The notes under the pieces are model-generated. The model saw only the letters and a program-made list of their open reading frames with translations, had not been told where the DNA came from and ran no database searches. A DNA stretch of 9,573 bases from positions 1 through 9,573 of IMG/VR virus record IMGVR_UViG_2617270962_000004; one strand, written 5' to 3'. The stretch comes from a virus. Its lineage: Duplodnaviria > Heunggongvirae > Uroviricota > Caudoviricetes. Shown in pieces: positions 1,211 through 9,573 of the stretch (its first letter is position 1; each line of letters opens with the position of its first letter). The position numbers and the translations under genes were made by a program.

Positions 1211-1741
1211 TTATTTATTCAGTCCGGCGTCCTGTTCAAAAGGCTCGACATAAAAACTTTCAGCGCCTTTATTCACCTTGATACCGGCAATGCCTTTCAC
1301 AGCATCCGGCTCCGCCAGGACGGCTTCCTTGTTCACTTCCTCTTTCGTGCGGATGAAACGCTCAAGCCCCATACGGCGCAGCATTTCAATCACACCTTCC
1401 ACATCACGGCTGACGCTGCATGATGGCGTTCCCAGCCGCCATGACACCGTTCCGGTGGTCAGATTGGCTGTTTTGGTTTTGCCGCCGTTCGTCAGCTCAT
1501 CACGGTTGGTTTTGCACCAGTCCTGAATCCCTTTAAAAAGCACTTTGATTTGCTTTTTAAGATTTTCAATCTGCGGCGTATAACGGGCGGTGATTTCTGC
1601 CACTTCGTCATTCATCGCCGTTTCCAGGCGTAGCGCCTCTCGCTGAATATCTCCCAGGGTGCGGATATCACGGCTGACTTCTTCCCGGGTCTGCGGTGCC
1701 GCCTCGGCTGCGGCCTTTAATTTTGTAACGCGTTTAGCCAT
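1211..1741 (-). CDS. gam: Gam-like host-nuclease inhibitor (Mu Gam / Ku-like DNA-end-binding protein)
   Basis: 176-aa translation contains ...NRDELTNGGKTKTANLTTGTVSWRLGTPSCSVS...LGLERFIRTKEEVNKEAVLAEPDAVKGIAGIKV...PFEQDAGL, which matches my recollection of phage Mu Gam (about 174 aa) along its whole length. RBS AAGGA is 8-9 nt upstream of the ATG at 1741. Confidence 0.85.
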   Translation of the reverse strand: MAKRVTKLKAAAEAAPQTREEVSRDIRTLGDIQREALRLETAMNDEVAEITARYTPQIENLKKQIKVLFKGIQDWCKTNRDELTNGGKTKTANLTTGTVSWRLGTPSCSVSRDVEGVIEMLRRMGLERFIRTKEEVNKEAVLAEPDAVKGIAGIKVNKGAESFYVEPFEQDAGLNK

Positions 1742-3093: not shown

Positions 3094-4026
3094 TCACACC
3101 TGTGAGAGTAATTCAGGGTTGGTATAAACCTCTTTAAAGGCCGCATTAATATGTTTTTCTGTCAGCGCCGCGCCTTCACCACTGGCGGTGATCCATGCCT
3201 GGTTAAGCGTATGTGTCAGAACGCGTAACGCTCCCGGCTTTTCAGCGATAGCCTGCATGACGGCCAGCTCGGCCTCACCACTGATCCCCCACGCCATGGC
3301 AATGGCCAGCACATCCGCCTTTTTGGCCTTGCGAAGTTGTTTTGTACGGGCAAGACGGCTGAACAGGCGCGATAAATCATCAAAGGCGCGGCGTCCACCT
3401 TTAAACAATCCGCGCGGGTTACCAATAAGCACCATCCCGATCCCCGTGGCGTCCTGGATTGCCCGGAGTTGCTCCAGACCGTCAATACCAAGATGATCCG
3501 CCTCATCCACAATCACCAGTCCACGCGTTCCCATCAGGCGACGGCGGATGGCGCGGGATAATGCCCCTTTGTTCGCGCGGGTGTAATCAATCCCCAGCGC
3601 ATCGGCCAGCTCCAGCAGACACTCCGTGACGCTGGAGTGCGCGGGTGACAGGGTGATCATCCAGGTGTTTGGTTGCTCCTGGCAGTAATTACGGGCAGTG
3701 GCCGTTTTACCCACACCCGGTACGCCCACAATAACGTTAATACAGCCCATCAGGCGAACCGCCTGAAACAGTGCGCGCAGCTCCTGGACTGTCTGAGTTT
3801 CCACAAACTGCGGCGGTTCCGGCAGTGCGCTTTGTTTATTCCAGTTCTCATACCAGGAGCGCAGGGAAGCAGCCACAGCAGCGTTATCGCCTTTATATTT
3901 TCCCTTACGGAAAGCCGATAATGTGCCGTCGGAAATCCCCGCCTCTCTGGCGATGGCATACTGCGTCAGTACGCCGCCATCAATAAGTTCATCAATGGTC
4001 TTGATTACATCGTTAATATCGGTCAT
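3094..4026 (-). CDS. B: MuB-like ATP-dependent target DNA activator (AAA+ ATPase)
   Basis: Translation contains a Walker A motif (VGVPGVGKTATARNY) and a Walker B-like motif (LVIVDEADHL). It aligns along its length with my recollection of phage Mu B (for example LPEPPQFVETQTV, KPGALRVL). Size 310-313 aa versus 312 for MuB. I prefer the ATG at 4026 (RBS GAGGTG 8 nt upstream) over the GTG at 4035 used by the ORF track. Confidence 0.9.
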   Translation of the reverse strand: MTDINDVIKTIDELIDGGVLTQYAIAREAGISDGTLSAFRKGKYKGDNAAVAASLRSWYENWNKQSALPEPPQFVETQTVQELRALFQAVRLMGCINVIVGVPGVGKTATARNYCQEQPNTWMITLSPAHSSVTECLLELADALGIDYTRANKGALSRAIRRRLMGTRGLVIVDEADHLGIDGLEQLRAIQDATGIGMVLIGNPRGLFKGGRRAFDDLSRLFSRLARTKQLRKAKKADVLAIAMAWGISGEAELAVMQAIAEKPGALRVLTHTLNQAWITASGEGAALTEKHINAAFKEVYTNPELLSQV

Positions 4027-4108
4027 ATTATTCACCTCGCTTGAGACAGCATTCTCCGAGACTGAAACCTCAAATAACCTGAGTCACCCCTCGGGTTATT
4101 TTTTTATT

Positions 4109-6199
4109 TCAGGCCAGCGGATCACTTTCTTTTAATTTCGCTTCGAGCAGTTGCAATCCCCGCTGGAAATTACGCTCGTATTCTTCATCAGGTTCATCGT
4201 CAGCGACAGGTTGCTGAACGGTCACCGTATTACCCACAGGGCGGTAGATGTTTTCCAGCCAGGGCTCCTGCGGCTTGTGCTCCAGCACGTTGACAACCTC
4301 ATCCTCGGCATCACGGATTTTTTCCTCTGCGCGTTTACGCATACCTTTAAGGCGCTGCTGCTGTTTGTAGTATTCCGCGCTGACAGGGAAGGCTTCGCGT
4401 TTATTGCCGTCCCATACCGCCTCGCAAATCACGCTGCCATCCGGGCGGCGCACGGTAATTCGTTCGGCATCATGAATGTCATAGCTGATAAGTACCTTAC
4501 GGCCATGCTCGTCACGCAGCTCGGGCGCGTAGTAAATATTATTCAGCCAGCGTATTTCACAGCGTCTTACAGGGCGCTCCACCATCGGCCGGAACATATC
4601 CCGCAGTTCAACATCGGACAGCCATTCAATTTCCGTGTCCTCTTCCGCCAGGCGTTTTTTTCTGAACTCCGCCGGGCTGTAATGTTTACCGTTCGGCTTC
4701 ATGGGTAATTCATCGTGCGGCCGGTTGTTGTACCACTCAACACCGTCACGAATGGCATCAATCAGTTCAGACCAGGACGGTAAATCACGCATCGCTGACT
4801 GCTGCCGGGCGTTCAGCCGTTTGCCCTGTTGCAGGGCACTGAATGCCGAGCGTAAATCGCGGTTGGTTTTACGTAACGTCTCGCGATCTGCTCCTTTCCC
4901 GAAATAGGTGCGGTATTTACGGGCTATGCGCATCGGTAATGTGCGGTTAAGCCGTTCGATAATGCCCCGTCCCTGCGGATTACCGGCAATCCCTGTCGGG
5001 TGATTAATCCCCAGTCGTGGCAGTATCCCCACAATCTCCTTATCCAGGACGTCGGCGGTTTCCCCGGAGCCATTATCCGAGTAATACAGAAACGGTTTGC
5101 CATGATGGCGAATACCGTGCTGTATGGCACCGGCTACGGCGAAAACATTTTCAGCCAGGTCAAGGCTCCAGCCCACCACAAAGCGCGTGCCACCGTCGAT
5201 AACAAAGGTCACTTCCGGTGCGAATGGCCGCCCGTGAACCGGGTGCGCGCATTTCAGCTTCATGCCGTGACCGTCACCAATCCAGACATAATTCACCGGC
5301 ATTTTTGACCAGTCGCGGCGCGTGAATCCCTCAAGCTGGCGGTATTCACTGCCAGTTACCCGGCCTTTTTGTTTCACCACTTCCGGCAGTTTCTTCATTG
5401 CGCGGCGAATGGTGTCATAAGAGGGCATGATATCGAGCATATAAGGCTCATCAGCGTGCCGGTGCTGCCATTCAGCAACAAAATCCTCGTAAGCCTCGGT
5501 CATTGGTCGGCCGTTTGACTGGCGATACTGCGCCAGAAATTCGGGCAGCCAGTTAATATCTTCGGCTTTTATTTCCTGGCGTTTACCCGGTGCCAGTAAA
5601 AGCAGGCGTTCAGCGGCGTTCTGTGCCTTGTTAAAGGCCGCAATCCAGCGTTTCAGCGTGATTTCACTCAACGCACGGCTGTTTCCCTTTTTGGCGTTCG
5701 CCGTCTCAACCATTGCCACAATGCGCTCGTCCAGTTGCGAACGTGCCAGGTTGTCAACGATAAACCGGATAGCCTTCGCACAGCTGAAACCAGGTTGTTG
5801 CGCGACTTTCAGAACTTCGCTGACGATCGCGATTCGTGCATCAGCCACCTGGCGCTGGTTTTCAGTCAGGGCATTGAGGCGTTCGAGCATCAGTTGTGGT
5901 GATCCGCGATATGCCTCCACCGCATCAACCACGGCAGATGAGCGTCTGGCCTTTGTCACCACCGGAGCCGGTGATTCATCAGCTTTTTGCGTCATCAGTT
6001 GAAGGGCATAACGTTCACGCAATACTTGTTGCGCGCCAGAAGGCAAACAATCGATATTAAATTCGATTGCTTTTGTCCCCTTACGTTTGCGTAACATGGC
6101 TGCATTTCCCGCAGCTGCTTTTGTGAGTCGATGGCGAATGTTATGTTCCATCATTGGTAAATCAGGAAGACCAACACATTCTTTTGCTGTTACCCACAT
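4109..6199 (-). CDS. A: MuA-like DDE transposase (transposable-phage transposase A)
   Basis: 696-aa ORF. The N-terminus MWVTAKECVGLPDLP...GTKAIEFNIDCLP resembles the MuA N-terminal DNA-binding domain (Mu: MELWVSPKECANLPGLP...GKAIEY). Size (Mu A is 663 aa) and position between ner-like and B-like genes fit. RBS GGGGGA lies 4-5 nt upstream of the ATG. Confidence 0.92.
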   Translation of the reverse strand: MWVTAKECVGLPDLPMMEHNIRHRLTKAAAGNAAMLRKRKGTKAIEFNIDCLPSGAQQVLRERYALQLMTQKADESPAPVVTKARRSSAVVDAVEAYRGSPQLMLERLNALTENQRQVADARIAIVSEVLKVAQQPGFSCAKAIRFIVDNLARSQLDERIVAMVETANAKKGNSRALSEITLKRWIAAFNKAQNAAERLLLLAPGKRQEIKAEDINWLPEFLAQYRQSNGRPMTEAYEDFVAEWQHRHADEPYMLDIMPSYDTIRRAMKKLPEVVKQKGRVTGSEYRQLEGFTRRDWSKMPVNYVWIGDGHGMKLKCAHPVHGRPFAPEVTFVIDGGTRFVVGWSLDLAENVFAVAGAIQHGIRHHGKPFLYYSDNGSGETADVLDKEIVGILPRLGINHPTGIAGNPQGRGIIERLNRTLPMRIARKYRTYFGKGADRETLRKTNRDLRSAFSALQQGKRLNARQQSAMRDLPSWSELIDAIRDGVEWYNNRPHDELPMKPNGKHYSPAEFRKKRLAEEDTEIEWLSDVELRDMFRPMVERPVRRCEIRWLNNIYYAPELRDEHGRKVLISYDIHDAERITVRRPDGSVICEAVWDGNKREAFPVSAEYYKQQQRLKGMRKRAEEKIRDAEDEVVNVLEHKPQEPWLENIYRPVGNTVTVQQPVADDEPDEEYERNFQRGLQLLEAKLKESDPLA

Positions 6200-6209
6200 A
6201 CATCCCCCA

Positions 6210-6476
6210 TCAAGCCACTTCTCTGGCGTCCACCTGGTATCTGCTGGGCCAGATTACAGCAGGTTCAACCCCTATTTTTTCGGCGATGGCGGCTTCGTAT
6301 TTACGGCACTGGCGGTAAAACACATTGCGCATTGATCCGCTTTTTAATCCTAACTCCCTTTCCAGTTCAGGGAGGTCTGTGCCTTTGTTTTCAAGGGCTG
6401 CATATACCGCTTTAGCAGACCAGTCACACCCCTCTCGAACAAACAAATTATTCGATGCTTGTCTGGATACCCTCAT
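6210..6476 (-). CDS. ner: Ner-like DNA-binding regulator (Ner/Nlp family)
   Basis: The C-terminal motif PAVIWPSRYQ matches the conserved end of Mu Ner and E. coli Nlp (PEVIWPSRY). It is the first gene of the early operon, directly upstream of the transposase. Confidence 0.8.
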   Translation of the reverse strand: MRVSRQASNNLFVREGCDWSAKAVYAALENKGTDLPELERELGLKSGSMRNVFYRQCRKYEAAIAEKIGVEPAVIWPSRYQVDAREVA

Positions 6477-6632
6477 TGTGTGATCCTCTCATGTTTACCT
6501 GAACCGATAATCAAAACCGGTTATCGATTTAGGTAAATCATAATCGCAAAATAATTCGATATCAACGGTTTTTTGCGAGCATATCGAAATTAAATGCGAT
6601 GTCGATAATTTCTTTGTTTTATAGGGGGTTAT
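6477..6632. promoter_or_regulatory. divergent promoter/operator region between the ner-like gene and the repressor gene
   Basis: 156-bp AT-rich intergenic region between divergently transcribed genes. It holds at least five copies of the hexamer TCGATA / TATCGA in alternating orientation (about 6505, 6522, 6556, 6582, 6602) and the palindrome AACCGGTT (6515-6522). Exact -35/-10 elements could not be assigned confidently by eye. Confidence 0.6.
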
Positions 6633-7244
6633 ATGGATAAGGCAGAAAAAACCGTATCCAGTGCGGAACGGTTTATTGATATGGAAGGAATAAACCGATT
6701 TTCAGAACGCTTAGCTATGGCTATGGGAAACATGACAAACGTCGAACTGGCGACCCTTTGTGGACTATCTGAAGCCACAGTAAGAAATTACAGGAAGGGG
6801 AAAAACTTCCCTCCTTTGGATAAACTGGCCTTAATAGCTAAAGCCTGTAATTGTTCACTCGACTGGTTGGCCACAGGCAAGAACGAAGATGAATGCGGAA
6901 AAATCGGAAAAAATTGCGATTCAGGTTCGGGTATTGATCAGGCGCTTAGCTCTCTAAGCCCCCAAGAGAAGCAATTAATCCTTACATTCATCAGGCGAGA
7001 AGGTACTAACAACCTTGTCAGGCTGGCAGCAATGAATACATCTACAATCAGCCAGGATGCGGTAGAAAGCATCATTGATGCCTTGCCATTACGTCCCGTA
7101 CTAAAAAATGCAATAAAGATAGGAATGGCGGGAAGTGAAGAAACAGACAAAGAGATTTTGCGCGTTATTGAGAAGTACAACTCGAGCAATAACGCCACCC
7201 AGGAATCAGGGGCAGTGACAGTAAAGAAAAATGTTGTTGGTTAA
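6633..7244 (+). CDS. prophage repressor, HTH XRE (Cro/C1)-type, 203 aa, functional analogue of Mu c
   Basis: Strong RBS AGGGGG 5 nt upstream of the ATG. Residues about 36-80 (NVELATLCGLSEATVRNYRKGKNFPPLDKLALIAKACNCSLDWLATG) form a typical XRE-family helix-turn-helix. It is transcribed divergently from ner/A/B towards the prophage end, as c is in Mu. I see no LexA-like S24 peptidase motif. Confidence 0.75.
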   Translation: MDKAEKTVSSAERFIDMEGINRFSERLAMAMGNMTNVELATLCGLSEATVRNYRKGKNFPPLDKLALIAKACNCSLDWLATGKNEDECGKIGKNCDSGSGIDQALSSLSPQEKQLILTFIRREGTNNLVRLAAMNTSTISQDAVESIIDALPLRPVLKNAIKIGMAGSEETDKEILRVIEKYNSSNNATQESGAVTVKKNVVG

Positions 7245-7416
7245 GCGCCATCGCTATCATGAGGTGGTGCTGTAAATACATATAGAGATCATATGACTCA
7301 TCCCAAGATAATCACGCTATTGAATAGTAATTCATGATGATTATCATACTGATTATAGTTAGATCGATTATGTGAGCATTTTGGCAGTTTGAAGATGTTT
7401 TGAAGAAGATTTTAAG

Positions 7417-7600
7417 GGTAAATTAGCAGTATCAAATGTGCCGCCGTTTTTTGATCTTTTGACTATTTGTTGAGCAGTCGGTATCAAAAAGAGTTTTCCG
7501 TCCGAAGTATACATCACCTGTTTTATTTCAGCATCTTACAGGTGATTTCACCTCCTTTCACTAAAACCCTTGTCGGTATCAAATGATTCACCTGGTTACA
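7417..7600. repeat. prophage terminus (attL-like) with three direct repeats of a putative transposase end-binding motif
   Basis: Direct repeats AGTATCAAATG (7428-7438), GGTATCAAAAA (7480-7490) and GGTATCAAATG (7575-7585). The element ends ...GGTTACA at 7600, so the other strand reads 5'-TGTAACC..., the 5'-TG terminus typical of Mu-like elements. The exact end is uncertain by a few bp. Confidence 0.55.
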
Positions 7601-8930
7601 CCCATGCGTCTTGATCGACAGAAGTTTTATAATGTGCATCGTTATAATCTACGATGCTGTCCGCGCTGTACGCTTTGCTGGCCTGGAAACCATCCGCAAC
7701 AATGACGCCGCCGTTATCAATTTCACAGGTAGTCGGGTTACCGTACTGACTCAATTCCGCAGCGGTAGCTGTACGCTCGAGACGCCATGGGTTATTGGAG
7801 TTTTCAGCGCTGGTACCCCGTGGGCAATCTTTAGACCCAACCCACCAGGCGTTCTTGTAAACATTACCATTGAAAATAACATGGTAAATTTCGCTACCTT
7901 CCTGGCCGCTCCACGCTTGCAATGAGTAATCGTTAACGCTATCCGCTGGTGTTGATGGCTCGCTGTTATCCGGAGTTGGGGTCACCGGTGTTTCCGGAGT
8001 TGGATCAACCGGAGTCACAGCACCGCCATTATTATCCGGCTTAACGGAACAGGAGCCAGGGTTACCATACTGGCTGATTTCTGTTGCCGTTGCCGCGCGA
8101 ACATAACGCCATGGGTTACTGGCATCGTTTTCTTTCGCATCGCCTGGGCAATTTGCCGCGCCTACCCACCAGGCGTTCTTATAAATGCCGCCGTTATAGA
8201 TAACGTACCATGTAGAAGAACCTTCCTGACCTTTCCAGGCTACTACAGCATAGTTGTCGTTTGACTTATCAGCTGGGGCTGGCTGAACATCAGGAGCCGG
8301 TTTAACGTCCGGTGCCGGTTTCACATCCGGTGAAGGCTGTGGTGCTGAAGTACAGGACTGTGGATTACTGGTTTCTGAGATTTCCGTTGCCGTAGCGGCA
8401 CGAACATAACGCCATGGGTTGCTGGCATCATTGCTTTTCGCATCACCCGGACAGTTAGAAGAGGCTACCCACCAGGCATTTTTATATACCGCACCATTAA
8501 AGACGACATACCAGGTCTGACCGCCCTGCTGTTTATTCCAGGCAACTACAGAAGAATTAGACGGAACAGTGCCCTGTGCTGGTGTAGCCGAACCGCCATT
8601 AGCCGGCGTATTGGATGCAGGCGTATTTGAATTTGAAGAAGATGAGCTGCCGCTCTTTTCGCAGGAAAGTGTATTGCCAAACTGACTAATTTCAGCAGCT
8701 GTTGCGGTACGCTTTAAACGCCACGGGTTAGTTGCATCATTTGCTTTCGCTTTTCCCGGGCAATTTGTAGAAGAAACCCACCAGGCATTTTCATAAATTT
8801 TGCCATCGAAAATAACCTGATATTTATTACCACCTTGTTGGTTATTCCATGCTTCCATTGCCAATGCTGGCAGAGCGGAACACACCAGCCCCATACCAAT
8901 CATAGATTTAGTAAATATATTTAATTTCAT
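7596..8930 (-). CDS. chiA: periplasmic endochitinase ChiA, 5' fragment (signal peptide plus four chitin-binding modules, 444 codons), truncated by the prophage insertion
   Basis: N-terminus MKLNIFTKSMIGMGLVCSALPALA is a signal peptide. Four about 65-aa modules repeat with the pattern AW...Y.V.FNG..Y.NAWWV...CPG...NPWR...TA.EIS, separated by S/T/P-rich linkers. RBS AAGGGA precedes the ATG. The last codon (GTG) and the TAA stop are supplied by the prophage end. E. coli ChiA is about 897 aa as I recall, so the catalytic domain is missing here. Confidence 0.85.
   Translation of the reverse strand: MKLNIFTKSMIGMGLVCSALPALAMEAWNNQQGGNKYQVIFDGKIYENAWWVSSTNCPGKAKANDATNPWRLKRTATAAEISQFGNTLSCEKSGSSSSSNSNTPASNTPANGGSATPAQGTVPSNSSVVAWNKQQGGQTWYVVFNGAVYKNAWWVASSNCPGDAKSNDASNPWRYVRAATATEISETSNPQSCTSAPQPSPDVKPAPDVKPAPDVQPAPADKSNDNYAVVAWKGQEGSSTWYVIYNGGIYKNAWWVGAANCPGDAKENDASNPWRYVRAATATEISQYGNPGSCSVKPDNNGGAVTPVDPTPETPVTPTPDNSEPSTPADSVNDYSLQAWSGQEGSEIYHVIFNGNVYKNAWWVGSKDCPRGTSAENSNNPWRLERTATAAELSQYGNPTTCEIDNGGVIVADGFQASKAYSADSIVDYNDAHYKTSVDQDAWV
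8277..8330 (-). repeat. in-frame 18-bp tandem repeat (3 units) encoding the linker PDVKPA PDVKPA PDVQPA within chiA
   Basis: Minus-strand units CCGGATGTGAAACCGGCA / CCGGACGTTAAACCGGCT / CCTGATGTTCAGCCAGCC, read directly from the sequence. Confidence 0.5.

Positions 8931-9221: not shown

Positions 9222-9573
<352 letters not shown>

What the first reader, a model, noticed from the sequence alone, without database searches (positions are those of the whole stretch)
6477..7244. Repressor is an XRE-type HTH protein, not the Mu c type, and faces a TCGATA-repeat operator region
As I recall Mu, repressor c and transposase A share a homologous N-terminal DNA-binding domain and compete for the operator/enhancer. 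Here the repressor N-terminus is a classical XRE helix-turn-helix, while the transposase keeps a MuA-like N-terminus (MWVTAKECVGLPDLP...). The two proteins therefore probably do not share a DNA-binding domain, implying a different lysogeny/transposition switch logic. The intergenic region has at least five copies of TCGATA/TATCGA in alternating orientation plus an AACCGGTT palindrome, which are candidate operators. The repressor has no recognisable LexA-like autocleavage domain, so the induction mechanism is open.
Basis: partly seen in the sequence, partly recalled or inferred. Interest (0 to 1): 0.5.

Follow-up and report, generated by a model that had tools for sequence, protein, structure and literature searches.

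The report
Mu-type repressor with swapped DNA-binding head
In this Mu-like prophage of E. coli the lysogeny repressor carries a lambda/434-style DNA-binding head on a Mu-repressor-style tail, so unlike in phage Mu it shares no DNA-binding domain with the transposase; similar uncoupling is already seen in Pseudomonas Mu-like phages.

Summary
The window is the left end of a Mu-like transposable prophage inserted in E. coli chiA. Rep (6633-7244) has an XRE/434-type HTH. The transposase keeps a MuA I-alpha-like N-terminus. The two show no similarity (E 0.58; Mu control 6e-15).

New here: the Rep C-terminal half is a module shared with Mu-c-type repressors. A profile of it finds proteins with a Mu-c winged-helix head at E 1.5e-19. 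Rep is therefore a head-swapped Mu-type repressor without an S24 autocleavage domain. I infer Mu-like (ClpXP-type) control rather than RecA-mediated cleavage.

The repeat claim is partly right. There are 4 exact TCGATA copies plus one near-copy, which is more than chance (P about 5e-4). They are fragments of two larger dyads. A natural immunity swap (L013: same Ner and A, different Rep head) breaks sharply at 6537/6538. The ner-side dyad (6494-6537, containing AACCGGTT) therefore does not follow Rep and is probably the Ner site. The Rep-side dyad (6543-6560 and 6583-6600) straddles the predicted early promoter and is the likely operator.

D3112-like Pseudomonas phages already combine an XRE repressor with a Mu-type transposase N-terminus, so this is a new variant of a known kind. 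What I-alpha binds is unresolved.

The parts
6633..7244 (+). rep: lysogeny repressor, 203 aa (stop included)
   Evidence: ORF list. Full-length match to PHROG 3037 'transcriptional repressor', E 5.6e-58. An identical protein cluster exists in public data (P0001). The same position and orientation relative to ner-A-B is seen in eight relatives.
6633..6887 (+). Rep residues 1-85: XRE/Cro-CI type helix-turn-helix DNA-binding head (helices at 23-81)
   Evidence: Pfam PF07022 and PF01381. PDB profile hits to 434 repressor and P22 C2. AF2 model pLDDT 86-94 over residues 21-80. 44-46% identity to the HTH of CI-like repressors of D3112-like Pseudomonas phages.
6918..7202 (+). Rep residues 96-190: all-helical C-terminal domain shared with Mu-c-type repressors (presumed oligomerisation/regulatory domain); residues 191-203 form a disordered basic tail ending VKKNVVG
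   Evidence: A profile of this domain finds 42 representatives among 1.84e9 proteins. Of 33 scanned, 16 carry HTH_3 and 4 carry the Mu-c head PF02316. P0073 matches at E 1.5e-19 and has PF02316 at residues 27-80. Mu c residues 90-185 hit PHROG 3037 positions 89-184 at E 1.1e-4. Models.
6477..6632 (.). rep-ner intergenic control region (34% G+C)
6494..6537 (.). ner-side dyad: TTTACCTGAACCGATAA-N10-TTATCGATTTAGGTAAA, core CGATAA-N10-TTATCG. It contains CCGATA 6504, AACCGGTT 6515-6522 and TATCGA 6522. Probable Ner operator.
   Evidence: Inverted repeat with 17-nt arms, 88% complementary. 91-97 of 98 positions are identical across four prophages with two different Rep heads. The core dyad is present in all eight relatives. 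It lies in the leader of the predicted early transcript, about 40 bp upstream of the ner ATG, like the Mu Ner site (assignment to Ner is by analogy).
6543..6560 (.). Rep-side dyad, left 18-mer ATCGCAAAATAATTCGAT (ATCG-N10-CGAT): candidate Rep operator in the spacer of the predicted early promoter
   Evidence: 17 of 18 bases are identical in L008, which has the same Rep recognition helix. In the other Rep type the site reads CTCGAACAATAATCCGAA.
6583..6600 (.). Rep-side dyad, right 18-mer ATCGAAATTAAATGCGAT, inverted relative to the left one: candidate Rep operator
   Evidence: The inverted repeat spans 6543-6562 and 6581-6600, with 20-nt arms, 75% complementary. It matches the ATCG-N10-CGAT pattern, which occurs 5 times in the window against 0.20 expected. 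It lies in the block that follows the Rep type.
6537..6565 (-). predicted early promoter Pe for ner-A-B: -35 TTGATA (6565-6560), 17-nt spacer, -10 TATGAT (6542-6537)
   Evidence: Consensus scan, 10 of 12 matches. The TTG of the -35 (CAA on the + strand) is conserved in all eight relatives. No transcript data are available.
6538..7013 (.). exchangeable immunity cassette: Rep-side operator block, Rep head, linker and the start of the C-domain
   Evidence: In window vs L013, identity is 83-100% on both sides and 37-62% inside. The left break is sharp at 6537/6538.
6210..6476 (-). ner: Ner/Cro-like early regulator, 88 aa
   Evidence: Pfam HTH_35 E 1.7e-20. BLASTP to Mu Ner E 5e-14, 38% identity.
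4109..6199 (-). A: Mu-type DDE transposase, 696 aa. Residues 1-65 (about 6005-6199) form the I-alpha-like winged-helix domain.
   Evidence: PHROG 310 E 2.7e-209. Pfam Mu-transpos_C and PF02316. BLASTP to MuA E 4e-13 over the full length. PDB 1tns.
7245..7600 (-). prophage left end (attL). The end is at 7600 (5'-TGTAACC on the - strand). It holds three TTTGATACYG repeats at 7574-7583, 7479-7488 and 7427-7436.
   Evidence: Homology to 34 E. coli genomes with different flanks stops at 7600-7601. Repeats. The host flank is chiA.

Best explanation
The locus is the immunity and early-control region of a Mu-like transposable prophage. Its repressor is a domain-swapped Mu-type repressor. An XRE (434/D3112-type) helix-turn-helix head replaces the Mu-c winged helix. 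The C-terminal helical domain and basic tail typical of Mu-type repressors are retained.

Shown: the domain composition; the lack of any shared DNA-binding domain with the transposase; the absence of an S24 autocleavage domain; the modular exchange of a 6538-7013 cassette between otherwise near-identical prophages.

Inferred mechanism:
- Rep oligomerises through its C-domain and binds the two inverted 18-bp ATCG-N10-CGAT sites (6543-6560 and 6583-6600). These sites straddle the -35 of the predicted early promoter, and the left one fills its spacer, so binding shuts off ner-A-B.
- Ner binds the invariant dyad at 6494-6537 in the early leader.
- The transposase I-alpha domain, conserved across immunity types, binds an enhancer whose bases are not the immunity-specific ones.
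- Rep therefore cannot compete with A by recognising identical sites through a homologous domain, as in Mu. It blocks transposition mainly by repressing A and B, and at most by steric overlap.
- Induction is expected to follow the Mu route (conformational exposure of the C-terminal tail and ClpXP/Lon proteolysis) rather than RecA-stimulated self-cleavage.
For: Domains.

No Rep-A similarity, with positive controls.

C-domain shared with Mu-c-type repressors. The profile search gives 42 hits. P0073 matches at E 1.5e-19 and carries PF02316 at E 4.8e-13. P0098 aligns to Mu c in both halves. Mu c hits PHROG 3037 at E 1.1e-4 over its C-terminal 96 residues.

Immunity cassette. L013 has Ner 99% and A 97-99% identical, but a Rep head 46% identical. 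The DNA break is at 6537/6538 and the divergent segment runs 6538 to about 7013. The Rep-side block is 85% identical between L013 and L010, which share a Rep type, but only 51% between the window and L013.

Operator candidates. The dyads were found. ATCG-N10-CGAT occurs 5 times against 0.20 expected. The left 18-mer is 17/18 identical in L008, which has the same recognition helix. It overlaps the predicted Pe.

The Mu repressor is degraded by ClpXP through a C-terminal determinant (PMC10584840). The Mu enhancer lies about 1 kb from the left end and overlaps O1-O3 (PMC3145075).
Against: No binding, transcription or stability data exist for this phage.

The direct profile-profile comparison of this Rep family with the close Mu c family is weak (hhalign E 0.09 over 37 columns). 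The link to Mu c itself rests on the PHROG cross-hit and on intermediate sequences.

The C-domain model has no fold match, so its function is inferred only from homology.

The inner parts of the Rep-side dyad (AATAATYCGAT) are conserved across all Rep types. They could belong to another protein (I-alpha or Ner) rather than to Rep.

The right arm is poorly conserved even in L008. Arm spacing in the window (22 bp) differs from the relatives (13 bp).

No promoter for rep was found.

Heteroimmunity of the window and L013 types is assumed, not shown.
Confidence: 0.6

Rival explanations
1. One reading: all five TCGATA-type hexamers, plus AACCGGTT, are equivalent operator half-sites for the XRE repressor, which covers the whole intergenic region.
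For: Four exact copies and one near-copy in alternating orientation are enriched over chance. XRE repressors bind short inverted half-sites.
Against: The two leftmost copies and AACCGGTT lie in a block that is 91-97/98 identical in prophages with different Rep heads, so they cannot specify immunity. AACCGGTT itself varies. L008, with the same Rep recognition helix, keeps only one exact hexamer. Spacings between successive copies are irregular (18, 34, 26 and 20 bp).
Confidence: 0.12
2. The Rep-side dyad is primarily the transpositional enhancer. Its two arms are I-alpha binding clusters flanking an IHF site, as in Mu. Rep binds overlapping but different bases, so Rep-transposase competition is retained by steric occlusion despite unrelated DNA-binding domains.
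For: The dyad lies 1.00-1.06 kb from the left end (7600), as Mu E does (PMC3145075). The spacer holds TATCAACGGTTTT, a 12/13 match to the IHF consensus WATCAANNNNTTR, and L010 has a perfect match (consensus from my own knowledge). The inner arm sequence AATAATYCGAT / ATCGGATTATT is conserved across all Rep types, together with the I-alpha recognition region NIRxRLxK.
Against: No I-alpha binding motif is known for this subfamily. The same 'CAA' is also the -35 of the predicted Pe, which alone would explain its conservation. Ner is conserved too and could be the binder. The IHF-like match is absent in L008.
Confidence: 0.3
3. The ner-side dyad (6494-6537) is not a Ner site. It is instead a third, low-specificity repressor operator (O3-like) or the enhancer.
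For: In Mu, O3 lies on the ner side of Pe. The dyad is invariant, like the transposase I-alpha domain.
Against: It is unchanged between Rep types with different recognition helices. Its position in the early leader, about 40 bp from the ner ATG, parallels the Mu Ner site CTAAGT-N6-ACTTAG, which is centred about 55 bp from the Mu ner ATG.
Confidence: 0.2
4. The repeats are a chance by-product of an AT-rich promoter region and have no binding function.
For: The region is 34% G+C. Short palindromic hexamers recur easily in such sequence. The promoter-like count is not above shuffles.
Against: Local dinucleotide shuffles give P = 5.5e-4 for the hexamers. None of 200 shuffles reaches the count of the 18-mer pattern. 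Both dyads are conserved in position in relatives as distant as Providencia and Morganella.
Confidence: 0.03

Closest known systems
Phage Mu repressor c (Repc) and D108 c
   Same: The gene sits at the left end, divergent from ner-A-B, with the control region about 1 kb from the end. The size is about 200 aa. The C-terminal helical domain is homologous, through intermediates. The C-terminal tail is basic (VKKNVVG here, VKKAV in Mu). There is no S24 domain.
   Different: The DNA-binding head is an XRE five-helix HTH rather than the winged helix (PF02316) that Mu c shares with MuA I-alpha: E 0.58 against 6e-15. Rep and A therefore cannot recognise the same sites through homologous domains.
c repressors of D3112-like Pseudomonas transposable phages (Casadabanvirus, e.g. 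JBD5) and the lambda-CI-like RepC of B3-like phage Fc02
   Same: An XRE HTH head, 44-46% identical over residues 15-82, encoded at the left end of a transposable phage. It is paired with a Ner-like gene and with a transposase that carries PF02316. A CI-like HTH in transposable phages is documented experimentally (PMC9936078).
   Different: Those repressors carry a Peptidase_S24 C-terminal domain (JBD5 E 8.6e-22). The window's Rep carries the Mu-type C-domain instead.
434 cI / P22 C2 / lambda CI N-terminal domains
   Same: The fold and sequence family of the DNA-binding head.
   Different: There is no RecA-responsive S24 domain. The genome context is a transposable rather than a lambdoid phage.
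Sister prophage L018 (GCA_011172215.1, repressor P0073)
   Same: The same phage lineage: the A core is 84% identical. The Rep C-terminal domain is the same module (P0073 matches the C-domain profile at E 1.5e-19) and the last ~50 residues closely resemble those of XRE-type relatives such as L010; over the whole C-domain identity is 44% to the window Rep and 56% to L010.
   Different: Its Rep head is Mu-c type and 55% identical to its own transposase N-terminus (E 2e-15). Its Ner is a 70-aa type. It follows the classical Mu logic, whereas the window does not.

Membership tests
Mu c-type repressor (Repc; Pfam PF02316 head) | N-terminal winged-helix DNA-binding domain homologous to the N-terminus of the phage's own transposase | tested here: not met
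   No PF02316 hit in Rep. BLASTP of Rep against A gives E 0.58. Controls give 6e-15 for Mu and 2e-15 for L018.
Mu c-type repressor (Repc; Pfam PF02316 head) | C-terminal helical domain of the Mu-type repressor family | tested here: met
   The C-domain profile retrieves PF02316-headed repressors (P0073 E 1.5e-19; 4 of 33 scanned). Mu c residues 90-185 hit PHROG 3037 at E 1.1e-4. The direct hhalign to the close Mu c family is weak (E 0.09).
Mu c-type repressor (Repc; Pfam PF02316 head) | Gene at the left end, divergent from ner-A-B, operators about 1 kb from the end | tested here: met
   rep is at 6633-7244, the end is at 7600, and ner-A-B lie on the opposite strand.
Mu c-type repressor (Repc; Pfam PF02316 head) | ClpXP/Lon-sensitive repressor controlled by its C-terminal tail | not testable with these tools
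   Only a sequence resemblance of the tail is seen (a basic pair followed by small or hydrophobic residues). The Mu facts are taken from PMC10584840.
XRE / Cro-CI helix-turn-helix family | Five-helix HTH_3-type domain | tested here: met
   PF01381 at 37.5 bits (cut-off 23) and PF07022 at 38.4 bits (cut-off 22). PDB hits. Model.
LexA/lambda CI-type autocleaving repressors | C-terminal Peptidase_S24 domain with a Ser-Lys dyad | tested here: not met
   No S24 hit at E <= 0.1. The C-terminal half is all-helical. The JBD5 control is positive.
MuA-type transposase | N-terminal I-alpha enhancer-binding winged helix | tested here: met
   PF02316 at 24.7 bits (cut-off 23.3). PDB 1tns E 1.2e-3. Enhancer binding itself was not tested.
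MuA-type transposase | DDE core and Mu-transposase C-terminal domain, followed by a MuB-type ATPase gene | tested here: met
   PF09299 E 2.2e-17, PHROG 310 E 2.7e-209, and MuB_C E 1.4e-24 in the next gene. The rve hit is below the Pfam cut-off (17.1 against 32.6 bits).
Ner (Mu early negative regulator, HTH_35) | HTH_35 domain protein encoded first in the early operon | tested here: met
   PF13693 E 1.7e-20. 38% identity to Mu Ner, E 5e-14. Its binding site is inferred only.

The most novel reading that the evidence does not exclude
The Rep operators and the transposase enhancer are interleaved in the same 60-bp dyad (6543-6600). The outer bases are read by the XRE head and set immunity. The inner conserved bases (AATAATYCGAT) are read by the I-alpha domain. 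Rep-transposase competition at the enhancer would then survive a complete replacement of the repressor's DNA-binding domain, and immunity could be swapped as a cassette without re-tuning the transposase. The extra ATCG-N10-CGAT sites at 6050 and 6903 could let Rep oligomers loop the region.
Probability: 0.25. Interest if true: 0.55.

Novelty: new variant of a known kind. Interest (0 to 1): 0.4.

Why it matters
Mu is the textbook case of a repressor and a transposase competing for one DNA element through homologous domains. This prophage family is widespread in E. coli, including O157 and O111 strains, and in Salmonella, Providencia, Morganella and Proteus. It shows that inside one lineage the repressor head can be replaced by an unrelated HTH while the Mu-type tail and the transposase I-alpha domain are kept, and that immunity then moves as a small cassette independent of the transposase. 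With the sister prophage L018, which still has the paired domains, it offers natural material for two tests: whether enhancer occlusion by the repressor is needed for stable lysogeny, and whether the C-terminal domain alone confers Mu-style (ClpXP, non-SOS) induction. The practical stake is modest. It would help predict whether these prophages, which disrupt host and Stx-phage genes, are induced by DNA-damaging antibiotics.

Tried and rejected
- hhalign of the XRE-type family (A1) against the close Mu c family (A2) gave only E 0.09 over 37 columns. Local hmmsearch gave 9 bits at best. I therefore did not rely on these and used the PHROG cross-hit and the exhaustive profile search instead.
- Foldseek of the full Rep model against BFVD returned only HTH proteins. 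Foldseek of the C-domain model returned nothing below E 1.6. The afdb50 library was unavailable.
- The genome-contig scan returned only five distant loci. Relatives were fetched by exact protein look-up instead.
- I searched for a Mu-c-type repressor whose head closely matches this I-alpha domain, which would have revealed its DNA motif. The search returned only truncated transposase fragments. Local phmmer gave only family-level hits, E about 1e-4.
- I tried to use the reported non-inducibility of O157 Sakai Sp18 by mitomycin C (PMC2669165). Sakai is not among the 36 complete E. coli genomes carrying this or the L013 immunity region, so the data cannot be transferred.
- No sigma-70-like promoter for rep was found on the + strand. 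GATAAT at 6604-6609 lacks a -35.
- I rejected AACCGGTT as an operator, because it is not conserved.
- I rejected the hexamer as the functional unit.

Full report
CONTEXT. The window holds the left 7.6 kb of a Mu-like transposable prophage and its host flank. On the minus strand lie ner (6210-6476), the transposase A (4109-6199), the MuB-type ATPase (3094-4035) and a Gam homologue (1211-1741). The repressor gene (6633-7244) is on the plus strand. The same 1.5 kb is found at 99% or more identity in 34 complete E. coli genomes, each with a different flank, and homology stops at 7600-7601. That marks the phage end (5'-TGTAACC on the minus strand). The host flank is chiA, which the prophage interrupts.

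OBSERVATION: REPRESSOR AND TRANSPOSASE DOMAINS. The repressor has a classical XRE HTH. Pfam gives Phage_CI_repr E 1.6e-9 and HTH_3 E 2.4e-9 at residues 25-85. A family profile hits the 434 repressor and P22 C2 in the PDB. The AF2 model has five helices at residues 23-81, a disordered linker at 85-96, an all-helical C-terminal half and a disordered tail. The transposase N-terminus matches the Mu DNA-binding domain (PF02316 E 3.1e-5), the solved MuA I-alpha domain 1tns (E 1.2e-3) and the Mu-c PHROG (E 2e-7). Rep and A are unrelated by BLASTP (E 0.58). The same test gives 6e-15 for Mu c against MuA. No S24 peptidase domain is detectable. The JBD5 repressor, used as a control, gives S24 at 8.6e-22.

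OBSERVATION: THE REPEATS. There are four exact TCGATA/TATCGA copies, not five, at 6522(-), 6556(+), 6582(-) and 6602(+). CCGATA at 6504 is a one-mismatch fifth copy that completes the alternation. Local dinucleotide shuffles give a mean of 0.36 copies and P(>=4) = 5.5e-4. AACCGGTT is at 6515-6522.

THE REPRESSOR IS A HEAD-SWAPPED MU-TYPE REPRESSOR. Mu c residues 90-185 hit PHROG 3037, the family of the window's Rep, at positions 89-184 with E 1.1e-4. I then searched a profile of the C-terminal domain alone (A4, residues 96-203 plus seven relatives) against 1.84 billion representatives. It found 42 proteins at E <= 1e-3. Of 33 scanned, 16 carry HTH_3 and 4 carry PF02316, the Mu-c head. The best of these, P0073 (E 1.5e-19), has PF02316 at residues 27-80. 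Its last ~50 residues closely resemble those of XRE-type relatives; over the whole C-domain it is 44% identical to the window Rep and 56% to the L010 Rep. P0098 aligns to Mu c in both halves. Direct hhalign to the narrow Mu c family is weak (E 0.09), so the tie to Mu c itself rests on these intermediates. The XRE head is 44-46% identical to the heads of the 'CI-like' repressors at the left end of D3112-like Pseudomonas transposable phages. Those repressors carry S24 tails. The window's Rep therefore combines a D3112-like head with a Mu-like tail.

THE COMPARATIVE TEST OF THE 'NO SHARED DOMAIN' IDEA. Eight relatives from Salmonella, E. coli, Providencia and Morganella all have an XRE Rep divergent from ner-A-B. 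L013 (E. coli) has Ner 99% and A 97-99% identical to the window, but a Rep head only 46% identical. The divergent DNA runs from 6538 to about 7013 only, with 83-100% identity outside it. Immunity is thus exchanged as a cassette that leaves the transposase untouched. By contrast, sister prophage L018 has an A core 84% identical to the window's. Its Rep has a Mu-c head 55% identical to its own A N-terminus (E 2e-15), and it has a different Ner. Both logics therefore exist in one lineage. The uncoupled logic is not unprecedented: JBD5 also pairs an XRE repressor with a PF02316-bearing transposase, and a CI-like HTH repressor has been characterised in B3-like phage Fc02 (PMC9936078).

THE CONTROL REGION: TWO DYADS. 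The hexamers are fragments of two imperfect dyads. Dyad 1 is 6494-6510 / 6521-6537 (TTTACCTGAACCGATAA-N10-TTATCGATTTAGGTAAA). Dyad 2 is 6543-6562 / 6581-6600. Its arms are two 18-mers of the form ATCG-N10-CGAT, a pattern found five times in the window against 0.20 expected.

THE CONTROL REGION: WHICH DYAD FOLLOWS REP. In the four-way alignment, window 6440-6537 is 91-97/98 identical in all pairs. The block 6538-6605 is 85% identical between L013 and L010 (same Rep type), but only 51% between the window and L013. Dyad 1, with two of the five hexamers and AACCGGTT, therefore goes with Ner/A and not with Rep. AACCGGTT itself is not conserved. The core CGATAA-N10-TTATCG is present in all eight relatives. 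It lies in the leader of the predicted early transcript about 40 bp from the ner ATG. The Mu Ner site CTAAGT-N6-ACTTAG is positioned similarly. I assign dyad 1 to Ner by analogy. Dyad 2 must contain the immunity-specific operators. Its left 18-mer is 17/18 identical in L008, which has the same Rep recognition helix, and reads CTCGAACAATAATCCGAA in the other Rep type. It fills the spacer of the best promoter-like site on the minus strand (-35 TTGATA 6565-6560, -10 TATGAT 6542-6537). The TTG of that -35 is conserved in all relatives.

MECHANISM (INFERRED). Rep oligomers bind the two 18-mers and occlude Pe. Ner binds dyad 1. The I-alpha domain, which is conserved across immunity types, binds an enhancer that I could not locate. 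One possibility is the conserved inner part of dyad 2. That part lies 1.00-1.06 kb from the end and flanks an IHF-like TATCAACGGTTTT, resembling the Mu enhancer layout (PMC3145075). Induction is predicted to be Mu-like, through C-terminal exposure and ClpXP, as described for the Mu repressor in PMC10584840. It is not predicted to be RecA-dependent, because there is no S24 domain and the C-domain and basic tail are of the Mu type.

LIMITS. No binding or expression data exist for this phage. No promoter for rep was found. The arm spacing in the window (22 bp) differs from that in the relatives (13 bp). The right arm is poorly conserved. The C-domain model (pLDDT 80, pTM 0.39) has no fold match.

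VERDICT. The operator reading needs revision. The 'open' induction question is narrowed. The result is a new variant of a known kind, of moderate interest.

Noticed in passing
window 7596-8930 and 7600-7601: The prophage is inserted in host chiA (bifunctional chitinase/lysozyme). The 444-aa ORF is the truncated 5' part of chiA, and its stop codon TAA is supplied by the phage end TGTAACC. In 34 other E. coli genomes the same phage end abuts different genes, as expected for random transposition.
   Followed up: yes
window 7574-7583, 7479-7488, 7427-7436 (minus strand): There are three direct copies of TTTGATACYG within 175 bp of the phage end (7 hits at <=1 mismatch in the window against 1.26 expected). 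These are likely the transposase end-binding sites L1-L3.
   Followed up: partly
window 6050-6067 and 6903-6920: Two further exact matches to the operator-like pattern ATCG-N10-CGAT were found. One lies inside the transposase codons I-E-F-N-I-D of the I-alpha domain. The other lies in the codons of the disordered Rep linker. They sit about 490 bp left and 320 bp right of the operator dyad and might be auxiliary looping sites or coincidences of coding. A fifth match, at 7638, is in host chiA.
   Followed up: partly
L018:3501-4127 and L018:1020-3107 (GCA_011172215.1): This sister prophage has a transposase core 84% identical to the window's, but its repressor has a Mu-c-type head 55% identical to its own transposase N-terminus, and it has a 70-aa Ner. 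The transposase mosaic boundary lies just after the I-alpha domain, at about residue 65-70.
   Followed up: partly
window 6559-6581 vs L008/L010/L013-L016 intergenic regions: The two arms of the Rep-side dyad are 22 bp apart in the window but 13 bp apart in most relatives, a difference of about one helical turn. The spacer contains an IHF-like TATCAACGGTTTT that doubles as the -35 of the predicted early promoter.
   Followed up: no
LC727895.1 / LC727881.1 (L002): Two Stx-converting phage records carry an inserted 'Mu-like phage' whose terminal 91 bp are 96.7% identical to window 7511-7601, with no match to the rest of the query (window 6100-7510: rep, ner, start of A) at megablast sensitivity. 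This is a related transposable phage whose immunity region is either different or too diverged to match, and it inactivates Stx prophages.
   Followed up: no
window 1211-1741 (-) and 9222-9482 (-): These encode a Mu Gam-family protein (PF07352, E 5.5e-42) in the early region and EF-Tu domain 3 (tuf) at the host edge of the window.
   Followed up: yes
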